Shown piece by piece: positions 1 through 40,143 of a DNA stretch of 64,000 nucleotides. Every line of letters begins with the position of its first letter. Position 1 is the first letter of the stretch. A program made the position numbers and the translations under genes. Below the pieces are notes generated by a model that saw only the letters and a program-made list of their open reading frames with translations, did not search any database and had not been told where the DNA came from. Source of the stretch: a virus; IMG/VR virus record IMGVR_UViG_3300037843_000280, positions 1-64,000 of that record; one strand, given 5' to 3'.

Positions 1-354
1 ACATGGACGACCTGTATGTCGTGGGAGGCGGCGTTCTCGCTCGGCTTCACGACGCGGGTCTGGACGACGACCGGGGTCACGCTGTCCGCGAACGGGCGCA
101 CGAAGTGCGGACCGGGTGCGAGTTGCCGCACGGGGTCGCCGAAGCGCATCACGACGCCGACAGTGCCGGCCTTGATTTGCGTGAAGGACAGCATGAGGAA
201 GAAGAAGAGCGCCGAGAGCGCGAAGAGCGGGACGCCCCGGAGCGGACGCCACTTAAAACTCAATTCTGAGTCACGGGTTCCTATGTCTACCATCGAGAAG
301 CCGAGACCGCCGAGCAACGAGGCAAGAAAAAACAGAAAGAACAGAAATCCCATT
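1..354 (-). CDS. SPFH/band-7 (HflC/stomatin-like) membrane protein, N-terminal 118 aa; gene runs off the window start
   Basis: Own minus-strand translation from ATG 354..352: MGFLFFLFFLASLLGG (TM) ...IKAGTVGVVMRFGDPVRQLAPGPHFVRPFADSVTPVVVQTRVV matches the SPFH N-domain pattern. AGGAGA lies 5 nt upstream of the ATG. Not in the ORF track because it is partial. Confidence 0.55.
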
Positions 355-370
355 GGGTTCTCCTATAATA

Positions 371-402
371 TGCGCGGGGGGAAGCAGCGCCGCTTCCCCC
401 CA
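371..402 (-). other. Perfect 10-bp GC hairpin (ggggggaagc/gcttcccccc, 6-nt loop) in the leader of the SPFH gene; possible terminator/attenuator or module boundary
   Basis: Inverted repeat seen directly in the sequence between the 547..801 gene and the SPFH RBS. Confidence 0.4.
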
Positions 403-546
403 CATAGCTCAACCAGCGCTCAATCCCTGACCCGCACCGGAGGACTCACGTGACATTCAACCCTGCCGGAATATTGGCGGAATCTATTGGCTGATATTGT
501 TGCCGATCTGATAATACCGCTGGCGGCGGGATTTTGCAAGTGCGGC

Positions 547-801
547 CTATTGCGTGAATGGGACGTCGCAGGCCTCGCCCTCGTCGTACTCGGAGATGAC
601 GCCGTCGCCCAGCACCATGTCAAGATGCCTCGCGCACAGGAATACCTTCTGCCCACTAGGGGCGATGATGTAGTCCACTGCCGGGTCGGGGCAGCGGTCT
701 TTTTCGTCCTGCTTAAATTCCCCGTTGACGCACGTGAACATGTCTTCTACCTCCATGCCGCCCACAGAGATGCTGACAAAGTATAGCTCGCATTGCCTCA
801 T
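547..801 (-). CDS. Small protein, member of a 3-copy paralogue family (EPAVDY ... FLCARHLD motifs)
   Basis: ORF track. It shares PAVDY(I/V)I and (W/F)(L/Y)CxxH(Y/L)D motifs with the proteins at 3812..3979 and 7706..7876. Confidence 0.5.
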   Translation of the reverse strand: MRQCELYFVSISVGGMEVEDMFTCVNGEFKQDEKDRCPDPAVDYIIAPSGQKVFLCARHLDMVLGDGVISEYDEGEACDVPFTQ

Positions 802-806
802 AAGCT

Positions 807-893
807 TGGTACGCGGGGAGGACTTGAACCTCCCCCTGCTTCACCTACCTCACAGCGGGCGAGCAGGTGCTCCTTCTCTGAGCTACCCGCGTA
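807..893 (-). tRNA. tRNA-like gene (87 nt, type-II length) with intact acceptor stem, D-arm, T-arm (GGTTCAAGTCC) and CCA, but no foldable anticodon arm
   Basis: The reverse complement folds with acceptor tacgcgg/ccgcgta, D-stem gctc/gagc and T-stem ggagg/cctcc. No 5-bp/7-nt anticodon stem-loop exists at positions 27-43. Confidence 0.4.
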
Positions 894-967
894 TGGAACC
901 CCGAACGGGACTTTTACCCGCAACCTCTCGGACTAGAGCCGAGCGCTCTGCATTGAGCTACCGGGGT
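894..967 (-). tRNA. Amber suppressor tRNA, anticodon CUA (74 nt)
   Basis: Reverse complement accccggta-gctc-aatgca-gagc-g-ctcgg-ctCTAgt-ccgag-aggtt-gcggg-taaaagt-cccgt-tcggggt-t-cca. Perfect 5-bp anticodon stem, U33, anticodon CUA, G37. D-loop and T-loop are atypical. Confidence 0.65.
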
Positions 968-969
968 GC

Positions 970-1045
970 TGGCAATCCGGGCGGGCATCGAACCCGCATC
1001 TCAGGTTTTAGGGACCCGGCTCTAGCCACGTTGAGCTACCGGACT
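970..1045 (-). tRNA. tRNA, probable anticodon CUA (76 nt)
   Basis: Standard acceptor and D-arm with T-loop ttcgatg. The only foldable anticodon stem (cgggt/acctg, one GU pair) gives loop ccCTAaa, with C33 and the residue at position 26 missing. Confidence 0.45.
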
Positions 1046-1068
1046 GTATTGTGACTGATACTGGAGGC

Positions 1069-1144
1069 TGGTGCGCCCGGTCGGATTCGGACCGACGATC
1101 CCTGATTTAGAGGCAGGAGCTTTAGCCCACTAAGCTACGGGCGC
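1069..1144 (-). tRNA. tRNA, anticodon CUA (76 nt)
   Basis: Perfect acceptor gcgcccg/cgggcgc, D-stem gctt/aagc and T-arm gtcgg-tccgaat-ccgac. Anticodon stem cctgc/tcagg has a C-U mismatch at 31-39. Loop ctCTAaa has U33 and A37. Confidence 0.55.
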
Positions 1145-1165
1145 ATGTCCTTAGTATACAGTCTG

Positions 1166-1849
1166 TCAAACATTTTCGTCCATTTCCTCGAACTGCTTTT
1201 TCAGCTTGAGATACAACTCCTTGTCGCGTTCCGCATTCGCCTTCTTTTTCTTCTTAGCGGCTTCCGCTGCCTTTTCCGCCTTTTCCTTGGCTTCCTTCTG
1301 CTTCGCCTCGAAGTAGCGGTCGAGGCGCTTCTGTACTTCCCTCGCAATCGCATCGTCGAGCGCGTCGTCCTCAAGCCCGAGCAGGTACGACGGGAAGCTT
1401 TGCTCGTATGTCACGTACTCTGGGTGGCAGTGGCAGGCGTCGTTGTACTCGTACGAGAGTGTGAACTGGCTCTCGTCGAACGACTCCAGCTTTTCGAAGC
1501 TCCCGTGCGTTCGGATTCCGGGAAGGTTCGCGATCTTGAGCCGCTGAAGCTCCCTTCCGAGGGCTTGGTTATATTGGTCCGCGACCGCGAACGTCTGCTG
1601 GTGAATCCACTCGTATGTCTCTGCCGCTTCCTTAACGTCCTATGTCATCTCAGTTCTCCTTTGTCTTAGTTTTTGGACTTCCTCGATCAGGCTGCGTATG
1701 AATGAGCACAATTCGGGGTTGTCCGTTCCTCCGTAGTATTCCCCGTCCACGTAGAACTTGTCCTGGTTGCAATGCCCGGAACAATGGCAGGGAACATGCT
1801 CCCAGCCGTACTTGGTGCCGTCAATCTCGATCTCCAGCATTGTCATCAT
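1166..1849 (-). CDS. Amber-interrupted early gene: one frame from about 1849 (or ATG 1840) to TAA at 1166, with a single in-frame TAG at 1640..1642; ~227-aa readthrough product with duplicated CHC motifs
   Basis: ORF-track entries 1640..1849 and 1166..1414 are in the same frame. Own translation of the 75 codons after the TAG (DVKEAAETYEWIHQQTFAVADQYNQALGREL...NDACHCHPEYV) shows no stop and no ATG/GTG/TTG start. Both halves carry CHC motifs. Confidence 0.6.
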
Positions 1850-2114
1850 CCTCGGCGCAGTAGCCGCAGTGCGGGCACGTGACGCCGTATAGAATTCCCC
1901 AACAGAACTGCTTGCCGCACTTTTCGCAGCACAGAACGTGAGAGCCGGGGTTTAAGCTCCCGCAGCAGCAAACTCTTTTCGCGCCGTCCACAAACTCCGC
2001 TTTCGGGCAGCGAGCACAGAATCTCCGGCATTTCCATTCGTCAGTCGCAGGCAGCCAATGGCCCCATTCGTGGAGACCTAACAGGCATTTGACTGCGCTC
2101 ATCAATTCGCTCAT
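1821..2114 (-). CDS. Cys-rich zinc-finger-like small protein (97 aa)
   Basis: ORF track trimmed to internal start MSELMSAVK, which overlaps the upstream stop as ATGA. Contains CxxC and CCC clusters. Confidence 0.5.
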   Translation of the reverse strand: MSELMSAVKCLLGLHEWGHWLPATDEWKCRRFCARCPKAEFVDGAKRVCCCGSLNPGSHVLCCEKCGKQFCWGILYGVTCPHCGYCAEDDDNAGDRD

Positions 2115-2296
2115 GAGACGTCTCCCTCGGGGTCGCCCTTCCTGCGGATGCCCCAGCCGCCGCGCCAATACACATCTAAGGTGTCGTCCCACATCGCCTC
2201 GCGACGGTCGTTCCAACTGGGCCAGACCTCGTATTCCTTCCCGCCGATCCCGAGGAAACCGCCCGTCTTCTCCTTCTTTGGCGGCAGGTCCTTCAC
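2111..2296 (-). CDS. Hypothetical small protein (61 aa), GTG start overlapping upstream TGA
   Basis: ORF track. The in-frame upstream sequence is Arg-rich junk back to a TAA. Confidence 0.4.
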   Translation of the reverse strand: MKDLPPKKEKTGGFLGIGGKEYEVWPSWNDRREAMWDDTLDVYWRGGWGIRRKGDPEGDVS

Positions 2297-2778
2297 TGGG
2301 TCTTGGGGCTGAGGCCGAGCTTCTTGTAGGCGTATTCCGAAGCGCCTTGGCAGGCGTCGCTGTTATCCGGGCGAATCCTATCCGCCTGCTTCTTTACCCA
2401 CTCGTGGAAAGCCCCCATATCGACCCTCAGTTCCACGTCGCGGGCAGCTTGCCGGGTAACATCGTCGGACTTGCGGTAGCAGTCGGCGGTCGCACCGCTG
2501 AAATCCCCGTAGTCAATCTCGGCGTCGGGGTTGTCCCACAGCACATCGGTGATGCTCAGCGGCGAGATCACGACCTTGTGCCCGCTGGAGACATACCTGC
2601 CGCCCACGATGTCGTAATAGGGCTTCTTCGCGGGGTCGCGAATCAGCAGTTGCAGCCGCCCGTCCCAGTACGCAGGCTCGGCCGTCACGGTGAAGATGTC
2701 GATGTTATCGACGCAGACCTCAAGCTCGCCGCTCGGGTCCGCCTCTTGCAATTCTTGGATCAGGTCCTTAGTTTTCAT
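2293..2778 (-). CDS. Hypothetical protein (161 aa)
   Basis: ORF track with ATGA overlap to its neighbour. Confidence 0.55.
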   Translation of the reverse strand: MKTKDLIQELQEADPSGELEVCVDNIDIFTVTAEPAYWDGRLQLLIRDPAKKPYYDIVGGRYVSSGHKVVISPLSITDVLWDNPDAEIDYGDFSGATADCYRKSDDVTRQAARDVELRVDMGAFHEWVKKQADRIRPDNSDACQGASEYAYKKLGLSPKTQ

Positions 2779-3227
2779 TGCACTGCTCCTTCGTATTTAG
2801 ACTTTAGTTCGAGGTAGCGCTGGCGCTCGGCTTCCTCCGCCTCACGCTGCTCCTCGGCTTCCTTTGCTGACACACGCTCAAGGCGCTTGCGCTCGTGCTC
2901 GTCGTACGCCTTTTTCTGCGCTTCGATCCAGTCGTCGATGTTGTCGAGCCAGTCGTAGGGGATGACGATGGATAGGTAGTCGTATTCGCCACCGCCGCAA
3001 TACTTGCGACCCCTGAGAGTGATACTGTTTTCCCCGAACTCGTAGCCGTCGTCGTCGGATGCCCTAAACTCGTAGCCAGTGCGTGGAACCCACTTGGGTT
3101 CGTGGTCTTCGTAGATTTCCTCCCGCAGAAGTCCGGCGTTTTGGGCTTTCGCGAAGGCTTCCCGCATGATCTCGTGGAACTGCCCCTGCAACTGCTGAAG
3201 CTGCTTGCCCATCTCCCTAATCATCAT
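2775..3227 (-). CDS. Hypothetical protein (150 aa), charged C-terminal helix
   Basis: ORF track with ATGATGA overlap to its neighbour. Confidence 0.55.
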   Translation of the reverse strand: MMIREMGKQLQQLQGQFHEIMREAFAKAQNAGLLREEIYEDHEPKWVPRTGYEFRASDDDGYEFGENSITLRGRKYCGGGEYDYLSIVIPYDWLDNIDDWIEAQKKAYDEHERKRLERVSAKEAEEQREAEEAERQRYLELKSKYEGAVQ

Positions 3228-3628
3228 TGTAGCTCTCCTATCAAGACAGAATTTGCTTGCGTTGGCACTACAGGATTTGCTTGCGTTGGCTCAGGTTCCC
3301 GCCAGAGGCGGTAATTCGATAATATTTGACGCTGGTGCTGTTCGAGCGGGACGGTGGCCACGGCGGACAGGCCCATGTTGAAGTCCGGCTCGTAGAACAC
3401 CTGATGACCGATGTCCTTGGAACGGAGCTTCTCGATGGCGCGGAAGAGCGCCTGCTTGTCGGGTACGCCGATGACTATGCACGACGGGATTTCGTCTATG
3501 TCTAGGTCTTGGGGTTGCAAACGGCGGGCAACTTCGAAGGTCGCGTGGTTGGACTGAACGACCTGTTGTGCGAGGGGGATGTCTGTCCTTACGAAAACGT
3601 AAAAATAGGGGTGCTGAACCTATGCCAT
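3224..3628 (-). CDS. Amber-gated early gene: AGGAGG-N9-ATG GCA TAG followed by a 131-codon open frame (TAG at 3620..3622)
   Basis: Own minus-strand translation: ...AGGAGGctcaaaaacc ATG GCA TAG GTT CAG CAC... runs into ORF-track 3224..3520. The track start is a TTG with no RBS. There is no other start between the TAG and that TTG. Confidence 0.55.
3251..3290 (-). repeat. Tandem 16-nt repeat atttgcttgcgttggc x2 (period 24) inside the 3' end of the amber-gated gene; encodes PTQANxV x2
   Basis: Seen directly in the sequence. Confidence 0.6.
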
Positions 3629-3811
3629 GGTTTTTGAGCCTCCTAGCTCAATACTGCTATACGGTCTGAAAGTTCGAAAAGTATGGAGAACAGCCAGTGC
3701 CGATCCCGGCCCGAAGACCAATTGCTCTGTCCTCAGTCCAGTTGGCTTTCACCAACCCCTCCGGCTTGCCCTCCAATATCAAGCATATTGTCTCACGAAA
3801 TTTCCGGCCTG

Positions 3812-3979
3812 TCAAGGTCTATCTTCCGTCAGGGAACGACATAGCACCGCGTCGTAGTGCTCGGTGCAGAGCCACACTTGGTTGAACTTGATGGGGGCGG
3901 GTTCGTCGCAAAAGATCGGGTCGCCGTCTTCGCCCGGCTCCGTGTGGAAGTCCACGATATATTGGCAGCTATGCGCCAT
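3812..3979 (-). CDS. Small protein (55 aa), paralogue family member (DEPAPIKFNQVWLCTEHYD)
   Basis: ORF track trimmed to ATG 3979 (MAHSCQY). Motifs shared with 547..801 and 7706..7876. Confidence 0.45.
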   Translation of the reverse strand: MAHSCQYIVDFHTEPGEDGDPIFCDEPAPIKFNQVWLCTEHYDAVLCRSLTEDRP

Positions 3980-4193
3980 CTTGTTTCTTACACGTCGCAT
4001 CCATAATTTCGGGCGGCAAGTACATTGCACATTTGTGGGTTTCTAGGCAACGCCTGCACGTGTAACGTTTTAGGCCGCAATAGCCCGTTGGGTTGTGGTA
4101 GCAATCCTCAGTGATCCAGTCATGTTTTCGTAGTACAGTCCTGTTCCCGAAACGCCGAACGCCGTGGCGCTTTCCGATGTTGGTTTTAGCCAT
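3969..4193 (-). CDS. Hypothetical basic small protein (74 aa); ends in TAG
   Basis: ORF track. ATG overlaps the upstream TAA. Confidence 0.45.
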   Translation of the reverse strand: MAKTNIGKRHGVRRFGNRTVLRKHDWITEDCYHNPTGYCGLKRYTCRRCLETHKCAMYLPPEIMDATCKKQDGA

Positions 4194-4198
4194 TAAAG

Positions 4199-4606
4199 TT
4201 ATGCCTTAGTAGGCACAGACCATTCCAAGACCACATCGTCCGGTTCGAGCGGCTGCGTCCACCTCCAAGAATTGTCGTTGGTGATAATCCGCTCATAGCC
4301 GTTGATTTCCATGTTGCTGACTAGGATGCGGTCATCCTTCGTGGCTCTTGCCTTCACCTGCTCCAGCGTCTCGACCTTTCCCCCGAGGTAGTACATGGGG
4401 CTTGTCGCCGTCACCTTGGAATCCAAGTCCTCATAGCCCCGCGAGCGCGTCGTGAAGCGGAAGCCGTAGGGTGTAGCGCCGTATCGCTCCGTGATCTCGG
4501 TCGCCATAGCCTTGGCTGCCTCTACGTCCCAGGAGTCAATCGGCTTCGTGGTGTCCTCCGCCACGAACGTGCCCGGACTGAAAAACGTCACGAAATGCTT
4601 TTTCAT
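4199..4606 (-). CDS. Hypothetical protein (135 aa)
   Basis: ORF track. AGGAG 5 nt upstream of the ATG. TAA stop. Confidence 0.6.
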   Translation of the reverse strand: MKKHFVTFFSPGTFVAEDTTKPIDSWDVEAAKAMATEITERYGATPYGFRFTTRSRGYEDLDSKVTATSPMYYLGGKVETLEQVKARATKDDRILVSNMEINGYERIITNDNSWRWTQPLEPDDVVLEWSVPTKA

Positions 4607-4671
4607 ATGTTCTCCTCTGAAACTCTAATACTCGAATACTCGCCGTCCTGCCCGTCGCCGGTTTCCTTATT

Positions 4672-4699
4672 AGAAACAAAAAACCCCGCTTGCGCGGGG
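4672..4699 (-). terminator. Rho-independent terminator on the minus strand (ccccgc-gcaa-gcgggg followed by TTTTTGTTT)
   Basis: Hairpin plus T-tract seen in the sequence, ~70 nt upstream of the 4199..4606 start. Confidence 0.55.
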
Positions 4700-4897
4700 T
4701 CGTCTGTCGTGTTGAGGTTCGTTCCCACGGGGAACGTGCAGGCCGTTTTTCAGGCGGCTGCTGCAAAAGCCATTGCCTTTGGGGCAGTGACGTTTATGGT
4801 TTTGCTCATTTACGGAAGTTTGCTCTCCGGCTCGCGTGCAACTCTCATCGACCAAATGTCGAAACCAGTTCACCCACATGGTTTTGTGGGGAAATGA

Positions 4898-4929
4898 TGG
4901 TGTAGGTGGGGGGATTTGAACCCCCGTCC
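4898..4929 (-). other. Orphan tRNA/tmRNA-like 3' fragment: GGAC-GGGGGTTCAAATCCCCC-CACCTAC-A-CCA, with no 5' acceptor partner
   Basis: T-arm, 3' acceptor strand and CCA seen in the reverse complement. The 3' end resembles tmRNA termini, but a CDS occupies where the tmRNA body would lie. Confidence 0.4.
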
Positions 4930-5021
4930 ATCTGGCGACCTAAGCACCCAACTCCCCTTGCGGGGTTGTTACGAGCGTGTACATATATTACTTGAAAAGC
5001 CAGAAATGTCAAGTGATTGTT

Positions 5022-6392
5022 TCAGGGTTTGCGGCGATAAGCACTTTGGAACTTGCGCTCTTCCTTGATCATGTCCCGCACTTCATCGTAAACCTGGCCC
5101 TTTGGGTCTAGGCCGAGTTCCTCGATCCACGCGGCCAGCTTCTTGCGGCGGTAGGTGTCCGCCCTGGTCGCGGCAGTCGGGCGCAGACCGGGAAACTGCC
5201 TGTGGGGTTCCCAAGGCGGCTCCCCCTTTTCCCGGCGCTGCTGTTCGAACGACTTGTCGCTGAAGAACCCCTCTGGCAGGTCCTCGTCCGTGATCTCGAC
5301 GGGTTTCTCCTCGGCGGTCTTCGAGCCGCCCTCCAGAAGCTCGATCTCGTTCTCAAGCTCAATCCTGCGAAGTTTCGGGTTCTGCCACTCGTTGAGATAA
5401 CCCTCATCTTGTACCAGCGCGAACGCGATCTGCCGCGCCCGCTCGCGGTATATGGGCGGCACCGGGGAACCGTGGGTCACGAGGAATACGATGACGCCGA
5501 GATAGTGCTGGTCGTCATCTGCGCCTGTAGGTTCCATATCAAGCTCATCCAGCAAGGTCTGAAGCTCGCTGTCTGGCACAGGCTCGTCGAAGCCCTCTCC
5601 CTCGTCGCCCTTCGGGCGGTGGCTGTCGAGAATGTCGTGCACTTGGTCGCTGTCGTAGGAGCGGTCGCCCCACTGCCCGGCGAACTTGCCCTGGCTCCGC
5701 GCCGCCCACGCCGACTCCTGCTCGACGCTGGCGACGTACTTCGACGGGTGCAGTTCGCGCTCGCCCTTGACCTGCCTCGGGTCGTGCGTCTCCGCCCACA
5801 TCGCCCACAAGCCCTTCCGCGCCCTGATCTGGTCGGCAAACTCCGCCTTGACGATCTCCTCGGCGACGTGCATCTCCGGCTCGGTCGGAAACTGGAACAC
5901 GGAGAACTCGTCCTCCTCGTAGTGCGTGACGTCGAAGTCCTTCATCCCGGCCTTGGCGAGGTGGAACGCCACGGGACCGGCGGCCTTTGTGGGCACCGTG
6001 AAGCTGAAGCGCGGCGGCTTGCCGGCCAGCTTTTTTGCGGTGCGCCAGCGCCCCACTATACCTATGCCGACAGACCTCAGGAACTCGTCGTCTTTCCTCT
6101 TCGCTTCCTCAGGGCTTAGCTGGGGCGGCTCCTCTTCCTTCGGCTCGACGATGCTCTTCAGGGTCTCGGCGTCGGTCCACTTGGCGCTGCGGGTACCGTC
6201 CTCGGTGACGACCTGGTAGTACGGCTCCTCGGTGTCCCTGTCCACGTCGATCTTGACCTTGACGCCGCTGCGCGGGCTGCGCCACACCTCTTCCGTCGCG
6301 CCGGATGGGTGGAAGCCGTTGGCGTTTAGAATCTCGCGCCAGTCGTCGTCCGGGAACTTGCCCATGTCGCCCTTCTTCAGCAGGTCTGCCAT
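5022..6392 (-). CDS. Hypothetical acidic protein (456 aa)
   Basis: ORF track. GAGGG RBS. TGA stop. No recognisable motif. Confidence 0.6.
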   Translation of the reverse strand: MADLLKKGDMGKFPDDDWREILNANGFHPSGATEEVWRSPRSGVKVKIDVDRDTEEPYYQVVTEDGTRSAKWTDAETLKSIVEPKEEEPPQLSPEEAKRKDDEFLRSVGIGIVGRWRTAKKLAGKPPRFSFTVPTKAAGPVAFHLAKAGMKDFDVTHYEEDEFSVFQFPTEPEMHVAEEIVKAEFADQIRARKGLWAMWAETHDPRQVKGERELHPSKYVASVEQESAWAARSQGKFAGQWGDRSYDSDQVHDILDSHRPKGDEGEGFDEPVPDSELQTLLDELDMEPTGADDDQHYLGVIVFLVTHGSPVPPIYRERARQIAFALVQDEGYLNEWQNPKLRRIELENEIELLEGGSKTAEEKPVEITDEDLPEGFFSDKSFEQQRREKGEPPWEPHRQFPGLRPTAATRADTYRRKKLAAWIEELGLDPKGQVYDEVRDMIKEERKFQSAYRRKP

Positions 6393-6426
6393 AGAACCCT
6401 CACCAAAGGGAGAGGAAAACGACTAT

Positions 6427-6669
6427 TTAATGGGGTTTGCTGAACATCGGGCGTTCCAGTTGGCCCCTGTCGATTTTCTCCTCGATGATGTCGGCGTACT
6501 CGCGGAGAAGCCGGACAAACTCGTGCCCCTTTTCGGTAACATTGCCTATGACGAGGATCGACGGGGGGTCGGCGCTCATCATCACGCCCGCGAAGGCGAA
6601 GCCGTATTTTGAGGCGAGCAGGGTGAAGTTCTGGTACGCGATAAGCAGGTCGTCCGGTTGTTGTGTCAT
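6427..6669 (-). CDS. Hypothetical small protein (80 aa)
   Basis: ORF track. Confidence 0.45.
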   Translation of the reverse strand: MTQQPDDLLIAYQNFTLLASKYGFAFAGVMMSADPPSILVIGNVTEKGHEFVRLLREYADIIEEKIDRGQLERPMFSKPH

Positions 6670-6701
6670 ACTGCTATCTTAGCAAATTTGGCCGGACTAT
6701 A

Positions 6702-7265
6702 TCAACAAGTCTGCGGCGGAATCTTTGGCGGAGTGCCTGAGCCGGGCGTCCCGCCACCGGGATTATTGCCCGAGGGCTGAAACCCGAGAGCCTTGGGACC
6801 GTCCTTGATCACGTTAGGCCAGTTCTTGAAGAGCGGGAACCCGAGGTAGTAGTTTCCCGCGAACGCGATCCAGTACCCGCGCAGCGGGTCGAAGCCCGCG
6901 TCGAGCATGGTCACCCTGCCCGTCGCGATAGGGGGAACCGGGGGCGGGATCGGGAGGCCGGGATACCTGTTGTACAGGGCGGGCGTCGCCGCGTAGGGCG
7001 GGCGGTCAAGCTGCGCGGCGGGGATGGAAGCGCCGAACCACGGCCTGAGGAAAAGCCGGAAGCCGTCCTGCCGCGTGAGTTGGCCGATGTCGTACCAAAT
7101 CATATACAGCGAGTTGCCGAACAGCACGGTGGTCTGGGTTTTCGCCCAGATCGTGGTGACGGACAGCATGGCGCGGAGGCCCGAGTCCCACGGGATGCCC
7201 GAGACCGGGAGCACCTCTTGCGGCTGAGGCTGGCTAAGCTGCAACGCGAATATGTTTTCGCCCAT
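6702..7265 (-). CDS. Hypothetical protein with Pro-rich C-terminus (187 aa; start trimmed to MGENIF)
   Basis: ORF track 6702..7310 trimmed to an ATG that overlaps the ferredoxin stop as TAATG. Confidence 0.5.
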   Translation of the reverse strand: MGENIFALQLSQPQPQEVLPVSGIPWDSGLRAMLSVTTIWAKTQTTVLFGNSLYMIWYDIGQLTRQDGFRLFLRPWFGASIPAAQLDRPPYAATPALYNRYPGLPIPPPVPPIATGRVTMLDAGFDPLRGYWIAFAGNYYLGFPLFKNWPNVIKDGPKALGFQPSGNNPGGGTPGSGTPPKIPPQTC

Positions 7266-7438
7266 TATTGTACCAGGTGGATGGCCTGAGTCTCGCACAC
7301 CGGCTCGCAAGCCCCGCAGTCAATGCAGTCCTCATTGACGCAGAACGATCCATCATCCTTTTTTATGATAGCCGCGACCGGGCAAGCCTCGACGCAGTCG
7401 CCGTCCCTCTTGCATTTCTCTTGGTCGATTTCGTACAT
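7265..7438 (-). CDS. 7Fe-type ferredoxin-like protein (57 aa; CKRDGDCVEACPV ... CIDCGACEPVCE)
   Basis: Own translation MYEIDQEKCKRDGDCVEACPVAAIIKKDDGSFCVNEDCIDCGACEPVCETQAIHLVQ. It closely resembles Azotobacter-type FdI cluster motifs. Not in the ORF track because it is under 60 aa. Confidence 0.65.
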   Translation of the reverse strand: MYEIDQEKCKRDGDCVEACPVAAIIKKDDGSFCVNEDCIDCGACEPVCETQAIHLVQ

Positions 7439-7444
7439 CAGCTT

Positions 7445-7696
7445 TCACTCTTCGTCATAAGCCTTCATCGGACAGTCAAACTTGTGCGGAAACGGCTTCT
7501 CGCGGATCGAGGCTATTCTGCCGCACTTGCCGCACTTGAATGCAAGACCTTCTTCGCCGTCCACCATTTCGTAGGCGAAGCCCATCATTACATCCTGGTC
7601 CCCGCGCTTGATCTCGGCGATCTCTTCCGGGGTAAGCTCGTCGTTTTCGTCGTCGAAGTCGCACTCGTCTTCAAAATCCTCGAAATCGCTTGCCAT
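7445..7696 (-). CDS. Acidic Zn-ribbon small protein (83 aa)
   Basis: ORF track. GAGGG RBS. CGKCG...C...C motif. Confidence 0.55.
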   Translation of the reverse strand: MASDFEDFEDECDFDDENDELTPEEIAEIKRGDQDVMMGFAYEMVDGEEGLAFKCGKCGRIASIREKPFPHKFDCPMKAYDEE

Positions 7697-7705
7697 AGGA
7701 CACCC

Positions 7706-7876
7706 TCAAAAGGAACGTATATCAAAGCGGTCGTAGTGCGCCGCGCAGTACCACAGCCTGCCTTTGTCATCGGCGAGAGGGTGACGGCGGTAGTTTATGA
7801 CGTAGTCCACGGCTGGCTCGCCGCAAGCTTCCCATTCGCCGCCAGGCAACTCTATGCGCCAGACGCACGCTTCCAT
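7706..7876 (-). CDS. Small protein (56 aa), paralogue family member (GEPAVDYVINY...RLWYCAAHYDRF)
   Basis: Own translation. Not in the ORF track because it is under 60 aa. Confidence 0.45.
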   Translation of the reverse strand: MEACVWRIELPGGEWEACGEPAVDYVINYRRHPLADDKGRLWYCAAHYDRFDIRSF

Positions 7877-7879
7877 ATT

Positions 7880-8176
7880 TTACGCCCACCCCGTGCCGCC
7901 GCAAGCTTCGCAGCCCTTGCCGCCGCACTCCTTGCAGCGCAGCATCTTCTCAAGCTCCGGGTGCTTCTCCGCGATCTGGGCGTCCTTCTTGGCGCGGCTT
8001 TCGTAGAACGCCTTGAAGAAAGTCTGGCCAGCAGGCGTCTGCTTGAAGCCCGCCTTGAAGCTGAGCAGAAACGCCGTCCAAAACTTGCTGAGGTACCAGT
8101 CCCAAAGCATCTTGAGCGGAAACACCACGGCCGCGCCGATGCCAGCCCAGACCCAATGTGACCAGTGCCCGCTCAT
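7880..8176 (-). CDS. Small membrane protein with C-terminal Zn-ribbon (98 aa)
   Basis: ORF track. Hydrophobic stretches. CKECGGKGCEACGG. Confidence 0.5.
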   Translation of the reverse strand: MSGHWSHWVWAGIGAAVVFPLKMLWDWYLSKFWTAFLLSFKAGFKQTPAGQTFFKAFYESRAKKDAQIAEKHPELEKMLRCKECGGKGCEACGGTGWA

Positions 8177-38758: not shown

Positions 38759-38782
38759 GAAGACAGTTTACTAGAATTTTGA

Positions 38783-39448
38783 CTAGCTGTCAAGTACAAG
38801 GTCTTCCGTGGTTTCGTCTTCTGGTGCGCCGTGCATCGTAACCTTGCCGAGTAGGCGGCGGTTGTAGGACAGCTTCGAGAGTTGGTACACGCCTTTGGAC
38901 ACGAGCAAACGTGGATTGAAGAACATGTGAAGGCGGGTATCAATATCGGCGATTAGCGGATCGGGGACGAAGATGTTGATCCAAAAGCCATGGGATTCCT
39001 CACCATCGCTCTTGCCGATTTGCAAGTAAGGGATGAGTTCTGGCGTGCCAGCAGCAGTGAGTTGCTTGATAGCTTGTGCCTCGTAAGATGGGTTGCAGCC
39101 GATTTTCATGGTACCCCTATCGGCGCAGATGGCGTCTAGGGCCTCGACTAATTCGGGTTCGACGGGGAGTATGTCGGCGAAGTCGCCGTCATGAAGCTTG
39201 GGGTCGTAGCGGGAATACTTACTCGCCTCGTAGGCTTCCTCAGTGACGAGTTGACGCTTGATGACACTGAGCGACTTGCCATTCACTGTGATAAAATTCT
39301 TGCTGGTTTCCGGAATGAGCTTCGACTCTTCGCCAAAATTGATGGAAAACAGCCCGGGCTTGGCGCACTGACGCTCAACCGTGCCGATGCCGAATTCGTC
39401 GTGGTCTACAGTATCGCCAACCTTGAGTTTGATCTGATGTCTAACCAT
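38783..39448 (-). CDS. Hypothetical protein (221 aa); TAG stop backed up by TAG and TAA within 5 codons
   Basis: ORF track. Confidence 0.5.
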   Translation of the reverse strand: MVRHQIKLKVGDTVDHDEFGIGTVERQCAKPGLFSINFGEESKLIPETSKNFITVNGKSLSVIKRQLVTEEAYEASKYSRYDPKLHDGDFADILPVEPELVEALDAICADRGTMKIGCNPSYEAQAIKQLTAAGTPELIPYLQIGKSDGEESHGFWINIFVPDPLIADIDTRLHMFFNPRLLVSKGVYQLSKLSYNRRLLGKVTMHGAPEDETTEDLVLDS

Positions 39449-39580
39449 ACCCTAGTATACAGCGGGGGCCTCGCGTTTGTCCACCCGCTTGAAAATATTT
39501 CCCACGACAGATGTACTTTTTACATAACGACAAATAAATAAGTAACTTACGGCAGGAATCATCGACATAGTGATGTGGCT

Positions 39581-40108
39581 CTACAGCCCGCCGTTGTCGG
39601 GGTAGACCAATCCTGCGCGGTGTAACCAGTTCTTCAGGTAAGGGGCGTCTCCGGGGTTGTTCGCGACGACCTCGCGGTCCCAGTTGGCGCGGGCGGTGCG
39701 CAGTTGCGAGGCGAGTGTTGGCTGGTCCGACTTGTCGATCAGGCTCAACGTGGTGGGACCGATCACGCCGTCCGCCGTGACGCCGAGCAACGCTTGGAGC
39801 ACTTTGACCGCACGCGAGCAGCCGGAGTTGATCCCAAAGTCCATCATCACGCTGGCCAGCCCGTCGTCGTTCACGAAGTCCAGGTGGAGCGGGTGCCAGT
39901 ATTCGCTGCCGTAAATTTGCACTGCCTCGGCGAGCGCCGTGGTGGTGTCGCAGGTGTAGAAGTCCGCAGGTATCTCGGGGTGGGCGTTGCTCGCTATCCC
40001 GAAGCGCGTCCTGCCCCCGATGTCGCCGGGCAGGGTCGTGACCTTGCCGGAAAGCGTGGAGTCCTCGAAGCGGATGACCCACTGGATGATGCCGTTCTTG
40101 TTTGCCAT
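39581..40108 (-). CDS. Endolysin: GH108 lysozyme-like domain plus PG_binding_3 (175 aa)
   Basis: GGRTRFGI and ALLGVTADGVIGPTTL motifs. Confidence 0.65.
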   Translation of the reverse strand: MANKNGIIQWVIRFEDSTLSGKVTTLPGDIGGRTRFGIASNAHPEIPADFYTCDTTTALAEAVQIYGSEYWHPLHLDFVNDDGLASVMMDFGINSGCSRAVKVLQALLGVTADGVIGPTTLSLIDKSDQPTLASQLRTARANWDREVVANNPGDAPYLKNWLHRAGLVYPDNGGL

Positions 40109-40143
40109 TTCAAACCCTCGCTAAAGGGCTTGAAATTAGGGTT

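What the first reader, a model, noticed from the sequence alone, without database searches (positions are those of the whole stretch)
3224..3628. Gene that begins ATG-GCA-TAG: amber codon at codon 3 behind a perfect AGGAGG RBS
The minus strand reads ...AGGAGG ctcaaaaacc ATG GCA TAG GTT CAG CAC... in frame with ORF 3224..3520. The ORF-track start is a TTG with no Shine-Dalgarno sequence. There is no other start between the TAG and that TTG. An amber placed immediately after the start codon would gate translation on suppressor availability. It could also be a start-stop minimal uORF.
Basis: seen in the sequence. Interest (0 to 1): 0.8.

Follow-up and report, generated by a model that had tools for sequence, protein, structure and literature searches.

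The report
Amber-gated tRNA hydrolase gene in phage
A phage gene for a peptidyl-tRNA-hydrolase-like enzyme starts ATG-GCA-TAG, apparently needs the phage's own amber-suppressor tRNAs to be translated, and shows the same layout in about 95 distant giant-phage relatives, which would give those puzzling suppressor tRNAs a target.

Summary
On the minus strand: AGGAGG (3644-3639), a 10-nt spacer, ATG (3628-3626), GCA, TAG (3622-3620), in frame with the ORF ending at 3224. No canonical start lies before the TTG at 3520.

The protein after the TAG is PTH2-like (peptidyl-tRNA hydrolase 2 superfamily). Its first strand and helix, with 5 of 10 family-invariant residues, lie upstream of the TTG, so the TTG start is untenable.

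Three tandem tRNA(CUA) genes lie 2.1-2.3 kb downstream on the same strand. A permuted tmRNA lies about 1 kb upstream.

Among 140 unique homologs from cultured jumbo phages, IMG/VR and metagenomes:
- 95 have SD, a start, 0-11 further sense codons, then TAG just before the domain.
- 78 of those have no other usable start.
- The base after the TAG is a purine in 93 of 95.
- A tRNA(CUA) lies within 10 kb in 50 of 59 early-TAG loci, against 7 of 17 normal-start loci.
- The background rate of the pattern is 1.3%.

A second gene in the window (1166-1648) has the same ATG-ACA-TAG start, as do both of its known homologs.

This is gene-specific amber gating, not genome-wide recoding. I found no description of it in the searchable literature. 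The XacN1 paper says it could not find targets for that phage's suppressors. There is no experimental proof, and the enzyme's substrate is inferred.

The parts
3224..3628 (-). Full coding sequence of the amber-gated PTH2-like gene: Met-Ala-[UAG]-131 residues, stop TGA at 3224-3226
   Evidence: Pfam PTH2 covers residues 7-77 after the TAG. Family profile vs PDB Pth2: 24bt_A E=1.7e-6, 2zv3_A E=5.9e-6. Foldseek top hits 2zv3/1q7s.
3639..3644 (-). Shine-Dalgarno AGGAGG, 10 nt upstream of the ATG
   Evidence: An SD core precedes the leader start in 80 of 95 early-TAG homologs.
3626..3628 (-). True start codon ATG
   Evidence: Equivalent in-frame ATG/GTG in 95 homologs.
3620..3622 (-). In-frame amber codon (codon 3), followed by G (+4 purine): the gate
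   Evidence: The TAG sits -4 to +4 codons from profile position 1 in 88 of 95 homologs. +4 base: A 57, G 36, C 2, T 0.
3518..3520 (-). TTG used by mechanical ORF calling; not the real start
   Evidence: No SD. It lies after strand 1 (res 7-11) and helix 1 (res 16-33) and after invariant R11, D13, Q22, H25, E29.
1069..1144 (-). tRNA(CUA) no. 1 (G1:C72, discriminator A73, CCA encoded)
   Evidence: ARAGORN; Rfam tRNA 60.2 bits; sequence.
970..1045 (-). tRNA(CUA) no. 2 (A1:U72, G73; nearest neighbour a tRNA-Trp at 78%)
894..967 (-). tRNA(CUA) no. 3 (A1:U72, U73; unusual T-loop GGGTAAAAGTCCC)
1166..1648 (-). Second amber-gated gene: SD AAGGAGA (1655-1661), ATG 1646-1648, ACA, TAG 1640-1642, G, then 157 codons with no canonical start in the first 75. 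Function unknown. It ends 22 nt before the tRNA(CUA) array.
   Evidence: Homologs in L040 and L188 keep SD-ATG-AC[AG]-TAG-purine in three different upstream contexts. The database copy P0072 is called 42 codons short.
4659..4990 (-). Permuted (two-piece) tmRNA, tag VTAPKAMAFAAAA, tag ORF ends in TGA. Syntenic with the gene in all 9 closest relatives examined.
   Evidence: ARAGORN; Rfam RF04321 91.5 bits; synteny.
3787..3815 (-). Sigma-70-like promoter candidate (TTGACA-17-TG-GACAAT), about 160 nt upstream of the ATG
   Evidence: Consensus scan only. The leader is not unusually structured (z=-1.4) and has no Rfam match.
2775..3227 (-). Downstream gene whose ATG overlaps the PTH2-like stop (ATGA). 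Possible translational coupling to the gated gene; it also has its own GGAGA.
   Evidence: No Pfam or PHROG match.

Best explanation
The gene at 3224-3628 (minus strand) encodes a PTH2-superfamily hydrolase. It is translated from the ATG at 3628, behind the AGGAGG. Ribosomes reach UAG at codon 3. Without an amber suppressor they terminate or drop off after a dipeptide, and no enzyme is made. When the phage's own tRNA(CUA) genes (three in tandem, 2.1-2.3 kb downstream) are expressed and charged, the UAG is decoded, an amino acid goes into the disordered N-terminal tail, and the full enzyme is made. Enzyme output is therefore gated by, and roughly proportional to, amber-suppressor activity in the infected cell. 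The very early position may favour this in three ways. The failed product is tiny. The inserted residue lies in an unconstrained tail, so suppressors of any identity would work. Release-factor termination is slow on 2-8-codon ORFs, and a +4 purine favours the suppressor. Shown here: the anatomy, deep conservation of the TAG, its restriction to TAG, linkage to tRNA(CUA), the favourable context, and a second gene in the same island with the same start. Inferred: that the phage tRNAs are the decoders, and what the loop is for. My preferred reading of the purpose is that the UAG acts as a sensor of read-through. It would set the level of an enzyme that clears or limits ester-linked tRNA by-products of suppression and ribosome stalling. 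This fits the adjacent phage tmRNA and, in most relatives, an adjacent or fused HD-like gene.
For: Anatomy. PTH2 assignment with the domain starting before the TTG: Pfam (12 of 13 members, best 1.5e-8); PDB profile hits to Pth2 at E=1.7e-6 and 5.9e-6 over profile positions 6/7-104; secondary structure of the model; Foldseek top hits 2zv3 and 1q7s, prob 0.99-1.00. Conservation: 9 of 9 first loci; 95 of 140 unique sequences, 78 with no alternative start, leaders mostly 2-3 codons including the start; median identity 38%, at least 8 state changes on an NJ tree. It persists in fusion proteins with either domain order. Specificity to TAG and controls. tRNA linkage: 50 of 59 vs 7 of 17, Fisher p=7e-4, same strand, median about 1.7 kb; in 12 loci CUA tRNAs are the only tRNAs within 10 kb. 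Own terminator avoids TAG: 2 of 90 vs 6 of 35, p=0.006. +4 purine in 93 of 95; +4 purines raise amber suppression (PMC6266110). Shorter minigenes terminate more slowly and drop off more (PMC2490762). Database gene calls are ragged and truncated, and phrog_34073 is a 77-position stub. A second gated gene lies in the same island.
Against: There is no expression, proteomic or ribosome-profiling data for any member. 9 of 59 early-TAG loci show no tRNA(CUA) within 10 kb (it may lie elsewhere in genomes of 170-600 kb), and 7 of 17 normal-start loci do have one. The amino acid inserted and whether each tRNA is charged are unknown; isotype inference failed, and tRNA no. 3 has a non-canonical T-loop. 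The window protein alone scores below Pfam's PTH2 cut-off (16.5 vs 23 bits). The Lys of the Pth2 'GK' motif aligns to Gln, so the chemistry may differ from classical Pth2. The structure model is low confidence (pLDDT 58). Neighbouring phage genes still end in TAG about 12% of the time (4 of 39 in the window), so suppression must be partial or timed. The one stop/anticodon covariation case (TGA with tRNA-UCA, L077) is ambiguous because GTG and TTG follow the TGA.
Confidence: 0.8

Rival explanations
1. RF1-activity sensor without a dedicated decoder. The early UAG is read through by host near-cognate tRNAs whenever RF1 activity falls, for example through phage-induced changes in termination. The linked tRNA(CUA) genes serve another purpose.
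For: 9 of 59 early-TAG loci lack a tRNA(CUA) within 10 kb, and 7 of 17 normal-start loci have one. Termination is intrinsically slow on 2-8-codon ORFs (PMC2490762).
Against: There is strong same-strand linkage to tRNA(CUA), often as the only tRNA nearby. The early stop is restricted to TAG, the codon these tRNAs read. The second gated gene abuts the tRNA array in 3 of 3 homologs. Near-cognate read-through in bacteria is usually very low (my own knowledge).
Confidence: 0.1
2. Start-stop minimal uORF (or lambda-bar-like minigene) followed by re-initiation at a non-canonical codon just after the TAG, such as AUU or GUU. No suppression is involved.
For: The codon after the TAG is ATT in 24 and GTT in 23 of 95. 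AUU is a known rare initiator (infC, my own knowledge). Four members read ATG-TAG directly.
Against: Many members have AAC, AAT, GAA, ACC or CAC after the TAG, which are not initiators. A uORF mechanism would not require TAG specifically, yet TAA and TGA are absent apart from one TGA case beside a tRNA(UCA). It does not explain the tRNA(CUA) linkage, or the leaders of 8-12 codons in the window's close relatives.
Confidence: 0.05
3. Ordinary gene starting at the TTG (3520), as the ORF track has it; the upstream ATG-GCA-TAG is a coincidence.
For: TTG is a legal bacterial start and gives a 98-aa ORF.
Against: There is no SD. It would delete strand 1, helix 1 and invariant R11, D13, Q22, H25, E29. 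Homology to relatives begins at residue 1-7 after the TAG. Some relatives have no canonical start at all after the TAG.
Confidence: 0.02
4. Pseudogene or sequencing error: a nonsense mutation in a decaying gene.
For: An in-frame stop at codon 3 is the classical mark of a null allele.
Against: The same stop sits at the same place in 95 unique sequences from independent isolates and assemblies, while the flanking codons vary freely (25 different codons before the TAG). The downstream protein is under clear conservation.
Confidence: 0.01

Closest known systems
Stop-codon recoding in phages (TAG read as an amino acid via phage suppressor tRNAs: Lak megaphages, crAss-like phages; Borges et al. preprint 10.1101/2021.08.26.457843)
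   Same: A phage-encoded tRNA(CUA) decodes in-frame TAG in phage genes inside a standard-code host. This is proposed to act as post-transcriptional control.
   Different: There, 26-71% of genes carry in-frame stops, coding density collapses under code 11, and late and lysis genes are enriched. Here only 2 of about 40 genes in 64 kb are affected, each by a single TAG at codon 3. TAG still ends 4 of 39 genes in the window and about 12% of ORFs in related loci. The same gene family is the target across very distant phages.
PTH2 of jumbo phages (Iyer et al. 2021, PMC7824862); PTH2-like gene in cluster C mycobacteriophage tRNA arrays (PMC5966550)
   Same: The same protein superfamily in the same kind of phage, discussed as a ribosome-rescue or tRNA-recycling factor, sometimes alongside tmRNA.
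   Different: Neither paper mentions the amber codon or suppressor tRNAs ('suppressor' occurs 0 times in both). The gate and the tRNA link are the new part.
prfB (RF2) autoregulation
   Same: An early in-frame stop codon serves as a sensor of the activity that reads that codon, and it sets the output of a translation-termination-related protein.
   Different: prfB needs a +1 frameshift at codon 26 and is opened by a lack of RF2. Here the downstream frame is the zero frame and the gate is opened by a suppressor tRNA. Whether the product feeds back on UAG decoding is unknown.
bldA tRNA-Leu(UUA) and TTA-codon genes in Streptomyces (my own knowledge)
   Same: A dedicated tRNA whose codon occurs in very few genes, so that tRNA availability gates their translation.
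   Different: TTA is a sense codon and the system is chromosomal and developmental. Here the codon is a stop, it is placed at the extreme 5' end, and the system is viral.
Lambda bar minigenes and other toxic minigenes (PMC2490762 and references therein)
   Same: A strong SD, then AUG, then 1-3 codons, then a stop. Such ORFs terminate slowly and shed peptidyl-tRNA, the substrate of peptidyl-tRNA hydrolase.
   Different: Minigenes are stand-alone. Here the mini-ORF is fused in frame to a hydrolase gene and appears designed to be read through.
Programmed read-through in RNA viruses (Q-beta A1 protein, MuLV gag-pol; my own knowledge)
   Same: A single leaky stop gives a longer product.
   Different: Those extend a functional short product at low efficiency using host tRNAs. 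Here the short product is a 2-aa peptide, and a virus-encoded cognate suppressor is linked to the gene.

Membership tests
PTH2 (peptidyl-tRNA hydrolase 2, Pfam PF01981) superfamily | Significant profile match over the whole domain | tested here: met
   The window protein alone is sub-threshold (16.5 bits vs 23, E=0.01). However, 12 of 13 family members hit PF01981 (best 1.5e-8), and the family profile hits solved Pth2 chains 24bt_A (1.7e-6) and 2zv3_A (5.9e-6) over positions 6/7-104. Met at superfamily level, not for the single sequence at Pfam's curated cut-off.
PTH2 (peptidyl-tRNA hydrolase 2, Pfam PF01981) superfamily | Pth2 alpha/beta fold | tested here: inconclusive
   The AF2 model is low confidence (pLDDT 58, pTM 0.50). 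Its best Foldseek hits are still Pth2 (2zv3) and human Bit1/PTRH2 (1q7s): prob 0.99-1.00, TM 0.44-0.52, E about 2e-3 to 9e-3.
PTH2 (peptidyl-tRNA hydrolase 2, Pfam PF01981) superfamily | Conserved catalytic motif residues of archaeal/eukaryotic Pth2 (the Lys of the 'GK' motif and the acidic residue of 'RDAG') | tested here: not met
   In the HMMER alignment to 2zv3, the GK lysine aligns to Gln (window Q18) across a 2-residue deletion. The acidic position is kept as invariant Glu77. The catalytic role of these residues is from my own knowledge. The chemistry or substrate may therefore differ from classical Pth2.
PTH2 (peptidyl-tRNA hydrolase 2, Pfam PF01981) superfamily | Hydrolysis of peptidyl-tRNA ester bonds | not testable with these tools
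   Needs enzymology.
Genome-wide stop-codon-recoded phage (code 15-like, TAG sense) | Phage-encoded suppressor tRNA(CUA) | tested here: met
   Three in the window.
Genome-wide stop-codon-recoded phage (code 15-like, TAG sense) | Many genes interrupted by in-frame TAG; gene calls fragment under code 11 | tested here: not met
   Giant ORFs of 800-1800 codons have no internal TAG. Reading TAG as sense gives no special gain in ORF length compared with TAA or TGA. Only 2 genes have the gated architecture.
Genome-wide stop-codon-recoded phage (code 15-like, TAG sense) | TAG no longer used as a terminator | tested here: not met
   4 of 39 putative genes in the window end in TAG. About 12% of ORFs of at least 120 codons do so in related loci.
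prfB-type autoregulatory recoding | Early in-frame stop that must be bypassed to make the protein | tested here: met
   TAG at codon 3.
prfB-type autoregulatory recoding | +1 frameshift with a slippery codon and an internal SD | tested here: not met
   The domain is in the zero frame of the ATG. The +1 frame hits TAA after 11 codons (read).
Minigene (lambda bar-like) | Strong SD, then AUG, then 1-7 codons, then a stop | tested here: met
   AGGAGG-N10-ATG GCA TAG. Leaders are 1-5 codons including the start in 91 of 95 homologs.
Minigene (lambda bar-like) | Causes peptidyl-tRNA accumulation and toxicity when Pth is limiting | not testable with these tools
   Needs a pth(Ts) host assay.

The most novel reading that the evidence does not exclude
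The amber codon, the suppressor tRNAs and the hydrolase form a closed control loop, a viral counterpart of prfB. UAG read-through both licenses and is measured by synthesis of an enzyme that acts on the suppressor pathway itself. The enzyme would either hydrolyse charged or peptidyl suppressor tRNA, or clear the peptidyl-tRNA and stalled-ribosome by-products of read-through together with the phage tmRNA. The phage could then run a partial, self-limiting amber-suppression regime inside a standard-code host. Such a two- or three-gene module (tRNA-CUA, gated PTH2-like gene, HD-like partner) could also be the seed from which full TAG reassignment evolved in other phage lineages.
Probability: 0.3. 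Interest if true: 0.9.

Novelty: new variant of a known kind. Interest (0 to 1): 0.85.

Why it matters
1. It would give a target to the amber-suppressor tRNAs carried by many standard-code jumbo phages. [quoted passage not shown] XacN1's ORF364 carries the ATG-AAG-TAG start.

2. It shows that stop-codon read-through in phages can be a single-gene switch conserved over deep divergence, not only a genome-wide code change. This gives a plausible intermediate on the path to recoding.

3. It corrects annotation. In GenBank, IMG/VR, PHROGs and the 5.8-billion-protein collection this family is missing or truncated at ragged internal starts.

4. It offers a natural, compact, tRNA-operated translational switch: SD, ATG, one codon, TAG, purine.

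5. It ties suppressor tRNAs, tmRNA and a tRNA-ester hydrolase into one island. That makes how phages manage termination and ribosome rescue directly testable in cultured phages (ME3, CBB, GAP32, fHe-Yen9-04, XacN1, Arash).

Tried and rejected
- **No close relative in GenBank phages.** Megablast of window 1-8000 found nothing; only protein-level searches worked.
- **Structure prediction.** The allowed alignment of close homologs gave only pLDDT 58, so I rely mainly on profile matches for the fold.
- **Suppressor tRNA isotype.** Nearest-neighbour comparison with 474 ordinary tRNAs was uninformative, with all best identities at 0.68-0.81 and mixed isotypes. All that can be said is that they are class I (73-80 nt) and heterogeneous.
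- **Frame 38768-40135 (minus).** It has two internal TAGs and looked like a read-through gene. Rejected: it is a GH108-like lysin ending in TAG, a 44-codon spacer, and a separate gene.
- **Genome-wide recoding.** Rejected.
- **5' leader as a riboswitch or T-box-like element.** No Rfam hit; folding z=-1.4.
- **AGCAGTATTG motif.** It lies upstream of the SD and is conserved in relatives, but it is not a repeated promoter motif in the window: 1 exact copy, and near-matches at chance level.
- **HD-like partner gene.** It is adjacent or fused in many relatives, but there is no copy in the window even with a profile.
- **Neighbouring genes.** Pfam and PHROGs gave essentially nothing.
- **TGA/tRNA(UCA) covariation (L077/L108).** Kept only as suggestive, because GTG and TTG follow the TGA.
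- **Read-through extension for the second gene.** Its upstream ORF shares the frame in the window, but this reading is disfavoured: the three homologs have different upstream genes or frames, and only SD-ATG-ACR-TAG is conserved.
Full report
**1. The observation.** The minus strand reads AGGAGG (3644-3639), ctcaaaaacc, ATG (3628-3626), GCA, TAG (3622-3620), GTT CAG CAC. This is in frame with the ORF that mechanical ORF calling starts at TTG 3520 and ends at 3224. After the TAG, the first ATG/GTG/TTG is that TTG, 33 codons later, and it has no Shine-Dalgarno core in front of it. ARAGORN finds three tandem tRNAs with anticodon CUA at 1069-1144, 970-1045 and 894-967, and a permuted tmRNA at 4659-4990, all on the same strand. 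Rfam confirms them: tRNA at 44-60 bits and tmRNA_permuted at 91.5 bits.

**2. What the gene is.** The 131 residues after the TAG match Pfam PTH2 weakly on their own: E=0.01, residues 7-77 against profile positions 4-81. A 13-member family alignment makes the assignment firm. 12 of 13 members hit PF01981 (best 1.5e-8). The family profile hits solved archaeal Pth2 chains over nearly its full length: 24bt_A at 1.7e-6 and 2zv3_A at 5.9e-6. An AlphaFold model is only pLDDT 58, but it places strand 1 at residues 7-11 and helix 1 at 16-33, and its best PDB matches are Pth2 (2zv3) and human Bit1/PTRH2 (1q7s). The TTG corresponds to residue 34. Starting there would remove strand 1, helix 1 and five of the ten family-invariant residues: R11, D13, Q22, H25, E29. 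One caveat: the lysine of the Pth2 'GK' motif aligns to Gln here, so the chemistry may not be classical. That this lysine is catalytic is from my own knowledge.

**3. The arrangement is conserved.**
- tblastn against GenBank phages found homologs at 27-47% identity in jumbo phages of Acinetobacter, Erwinia, Yersinia, Serratia, Pectobacterium, Cronobacter, Salmonella, Ralstonia, Xanthomonas, Stenotrophomonas and Tenacibaculum, and in a 595-kb uncultured phage.
- In many records nothing is annotated under the match, or the CDS starts well inside the homology.
- Reading the 5' ends showed the same layout each time:

| Phage | 5' end |
|---|---|
| Kaldavass, XbC2 | ATG GCT CAC TAG |
| ME3 | ATG ACT TAG |
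| LR756511 | ATG ACT CAC TAG |
| fHe-Yen9-04 | ATG TCT CAC TAG |
| Arash | ATG CTG TAG |
| RsoM2USA | ATG TTG TAG |
| XacN1 | ATG AAG TAG |
| pT24 | ATG AAA TAG |

- fHe-Yen9-04 and Serratia BF have no canonical start anywhere after the TAG.
- In XacN1, Xoo-sp13, CM1 and pT24 the domain is fused to a second, HD-like domain in either order. The TAG stays at the extreme 5' end of the fused gene.

**4. Survey and controls.** With IMG/VR and one metagenome scan I collected 185 loci holding 140 unique domain sequences. 95 (68%) have an in-frame start, 0-11 further sense codons, then TAG, sitting -4 to +4 codons from profile position 1 in 88 of the 95.
- 78 have no canonical start before strand 1. 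The other 17 have one without an SD.
- 80 of 95 have an SD core before the leader start.
- Leader length including the start codon: 2 codons in 51, 3 in 19, 4 in 10, 5 in 7, 1 in 4, and 8-12 in 4. The long leaders include the window's close relatives.
- 25 different codons precede the TAG. The base after it is A in 57, G in 36, C in 2 and T in 0.
- Members with TAA or TGA upstream mostly have ordinary SD-plus-start arrangements instead. Eight are ambiguous or are weak non-TAG candidates.
- Control: of 1,580 other long frames in the same loci, 1.3% show a TAG pattern of this kind, against 2.5% for TGA and 1.6% for TAA.
- The early-TAG sequences have median pairwise identity of 38% (minimum 18%). 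A neighbour-joining tree needs at least 8 gains or losses.
- Eight of the nine single-base changes to TAG give a sense codon, and the position lies in a disordered tail. Its retention therefore implies selection for the stop itself.

**5. Link to suppressor tRNAs.**
- In loci with at least 3 kb on both sides, a tRNA(CUA) lies within 10 kb in 50 of 59 early-TAG loci, against 7 of 17 normal-start loci (Fisher p=7e-4). It is always on the same strand, at a median distance of about 1.7 kb. In 12 loci CUA tRNAs are the only tRNAs present.
- Early-TAG genes almost never end in TAG themselves (TGA 52, TAA 36, TAG 2), whereas normal-start members do so in 6 of 35 (p=0.006).
- One locus (L077/L108) has ATG GAA TCG TGA with a tRNA(UCA) 266 nt upstream. 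This is suggestive covariation, but it is ambiguous because GTG and TTG follow the TGA.
- The +4 purine preference matches the known context effect on amber suppression (PMC6266110).
- Termination slows and peptidyl-tRNA drop-off rises as ORFs shorten from 8 to 2 codons (PMC2490762). A very early UAG should therefore favour a cognate suppressor over RF1.

**6. Not a recoded genome.**
- The window's giant ORFs (800-1800 codons) have no internal TAG.
- Reading TAG as sense gives no special gain in ORF length.
- TAG still ends 4 of 39 putative genes in the window and about 12% of long ORFs in related loci.
- Over 2.35 Mb of related loci, the stringent architecture occurs 38 times with TAG: 29 PTH2-like, 2 of a second family, and 7 that look like non-coding frames. 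It occurs 9 times with TAA and 8 with TGA. The gating is gene-specific.

**7. A second gated gene in the window.** A whole-window scan found exactly two TAG cases. The second is AAGGAGA (1655-1661), ATG (1646-1648), ACA, TAG (1640-1642), G, then 157 codons to TGA at 1166-1168. The first 75 of those codons contain no canonical start. The gene ends 22 nt before the tRNA(CUA) array.
- Its only known homologs keep SD-ATG-ACA/ACG-TAG-purine and also sit directly upstream of a tRNA(CUA): L040 at 70% identity, and L188/P0072 at 62-67%.
- The three have different upstream genes or frames, so this is an independent initiation site and not merely an extension of the upstream gene.
- Its function is unknown.

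**8. Island context.** In the window and its 9 closest relatives the order is: permuted tmRNA, the gated PTH2-like gene, a variable middle, then 1-3 tRNA(CUA).
- In 44 of the 140 unique sequences (tblastn sensitivity), an HD-like gene follows the PTH2-like gene on the same strand, usually immediately. It is the same domain that is fused to it in XacN1, CM1, pT24 and L104.
- The window lacks the HD-like gene.
- The window gene's stop overlaps the next gene's ATG (ATGA), so the gate may also influence downstream genes.
- A sigma-70-like promoter candidate lies at 3815-3787.

**9. Mechanism and confidence.** I put 0.8 on this reading: translation starts at ATG 3628 and needs UAG read-through by the phage tRNA(CUA)s, so enzyme output tracks suppressor activity. 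The purpose is inferred. The sensor measures UAG read-through, and the product is a tRNA-ester hydrolase encoded beside a tmRNA. The most economical reading is therefore proportional control of an enzyme that clears or limits by-products of suppression and stalling. A closed feedback on the suppressor itself is the more novel version (probability about 0.3). Rivals: an RF1 sensor using host tRNAs (0.1), a start-stop uORF with non-canonical re-initiation (0.05), the TTG start (0.02) and a pseudogene (0.01).

**10. Prior knowledge.**
- PTH2 in jumbo phages has been noted as a putative rescue factor (Iyer et al. 2021, PMC7824862).
- A PTH2-like gene has been noted in mycobacteriophage tRNA arrays (PMC5966550).
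- Neither paper mentions suppressors or the amber codon.
- The XacN1 paper reports two CUA suppressors and states that no target could be found (PMC5852040).
- Papers on phage recoding and jumbo-phage surveys do not describe this arrangement.
- Within the searchable library the gate is undescribed. I cannot exclude a description in journals outside it.

**11. Verdict.** The finding is real, its main interpretation is supported by strong comparative evidence, and it extends well beyond the window. I rate it a new variant of a known kind (tRNA-dependent stop-codon read-through used as gene control), with interest 0.85.

Noticed in passing
window 1166-1661, minus strand: Second gene with the same start architecture: AAGGAGA-N6-ATG ACA TAG G, then 157 codons with no canonical start in the first 75. 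It ends 22 nt before the tRNA(CUA) array. Both known homologs (L040, L188) keep ATG-ACR-TAG. Function unknown; it has a CHCHPEY motif and a Lys-rich C-terminal tail.
   Followed up: yes
window 894-1144, minus strand: Three different amber-suppressor tRNAs in tandem, with different 1:72 pairs and discriminators (G:C/A73, A:U/G73, A:U/U73). The third has a non-canonical T-loop (GGGTAAAAGTCCC) that recurs in the copies in relatives L004 and L040. They may be charged with different amino acids.
   Followed up: partly
window 810-893, minus strand: A tRNA-like element directly after the third tRNA. It has an acceptor stem, D arm, T arm and CCA, but an oversized roughly 18-nt 'anticodon loop'. ARAGORN misses it. 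Rfam gives only a weak mascRNA-like hit (27.4 bits, E=0.016).
   Followed up: no
window 4659-4990, minus strand; L039-L052, L188: Phage-encoded permuted (two-piece) tmRNA (RF04321, 91.5 bits) with its own promoter-like and terminator-like sites. The tag is VTAPKAMAFAAAA and its ORF ends in TGA. It is syntenic with the gated gene in all 9 close relatives examined; their tags vary (for example ANAPKAMAAHA).
   Followed up: partly
L003, L006, L001, L039 and others; fused in L009-L011, L014, L104: A roughly 175-aa HD-like gene (motif HDIGKP...RHFPNHA; Pfam HD only E=0.027) lies immediately downstream of the PTH2-like gene in many phages, and is fused to it in XacN1-like phages and pT24. This suggests a functional pair acting on tRNA 3' ends. 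It is absent from the window.
   Followed up: partly
L047 12314-12393, L044 10525-10600, L188 6549-6623, L041 and L042: Next to the CUA tRNAs, relatives carry tRNA-like genes that ARAGORN reads with 8-nt or 6-nt anticodon loops (for example 'ctag', 'gcaa', 'ct', 'tc'). These could be quadruplet decoders or degenerate copies.
   Followed up: no
window 38768-40135, minus strand: A GH108-like lysin (39581-40108) ends in TAG. It is followed in frame by 44 codons and a second TAG, then a new gene. Amber suppression would add a 44-residue tail to the lysin.
   Followed up: partly
L016 (Mycobacterium phage Cane17, NC_054716 93158-94621): The annotated 'peptidyl tRNA hydrolase' reads ATG TAG GTG at its start, and a tRNA(CUA) lies 250 nt downstream. 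The GTG has the better SD spacing, so this may be a vestige or a codon-2 gate.
   Followed up: partly
L007 (Salmonella phage Arash, OQ632216 49176-49247): A tRNA annotated as tRNA-Phe in GenBank has anticodon CTA according to ARAGORN. Its PTH2-like gene is annotated as a 50-aa fragment, 'peptidyl-tRNA hydrolase' (gp84c).
   Followed up: partly
databases (phrog_34073; P0001-P0071): Public protein collections hold this family as N-terminally truncated calls starting at assorted internal GTG, ATG or TTG codons. One PHROG family (77 positions) appears to be built from such stubs.
   Followed up: yes
window 3649-3658, minus strand: The motif AGCAGTATTG just upstream of the SD is conserved in relatives L004, L040 and L041 and resembles 'tagcagtataac' in RsoM2USA. 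It is not repeated elsewhere in the window. It could be a locus-specific promoter or regulatory site.
   Followed up: partly
window as a whole: A very poorly charted phage lineage: no nucleotide match in GenBank phages, and most proteins, including ORFs of 1,700 and 1,806 aa, have no Pfam or PHROG match. Related IMG/VR contigs range from about 26 kb fragments to 463 kb.
   Followed up: no
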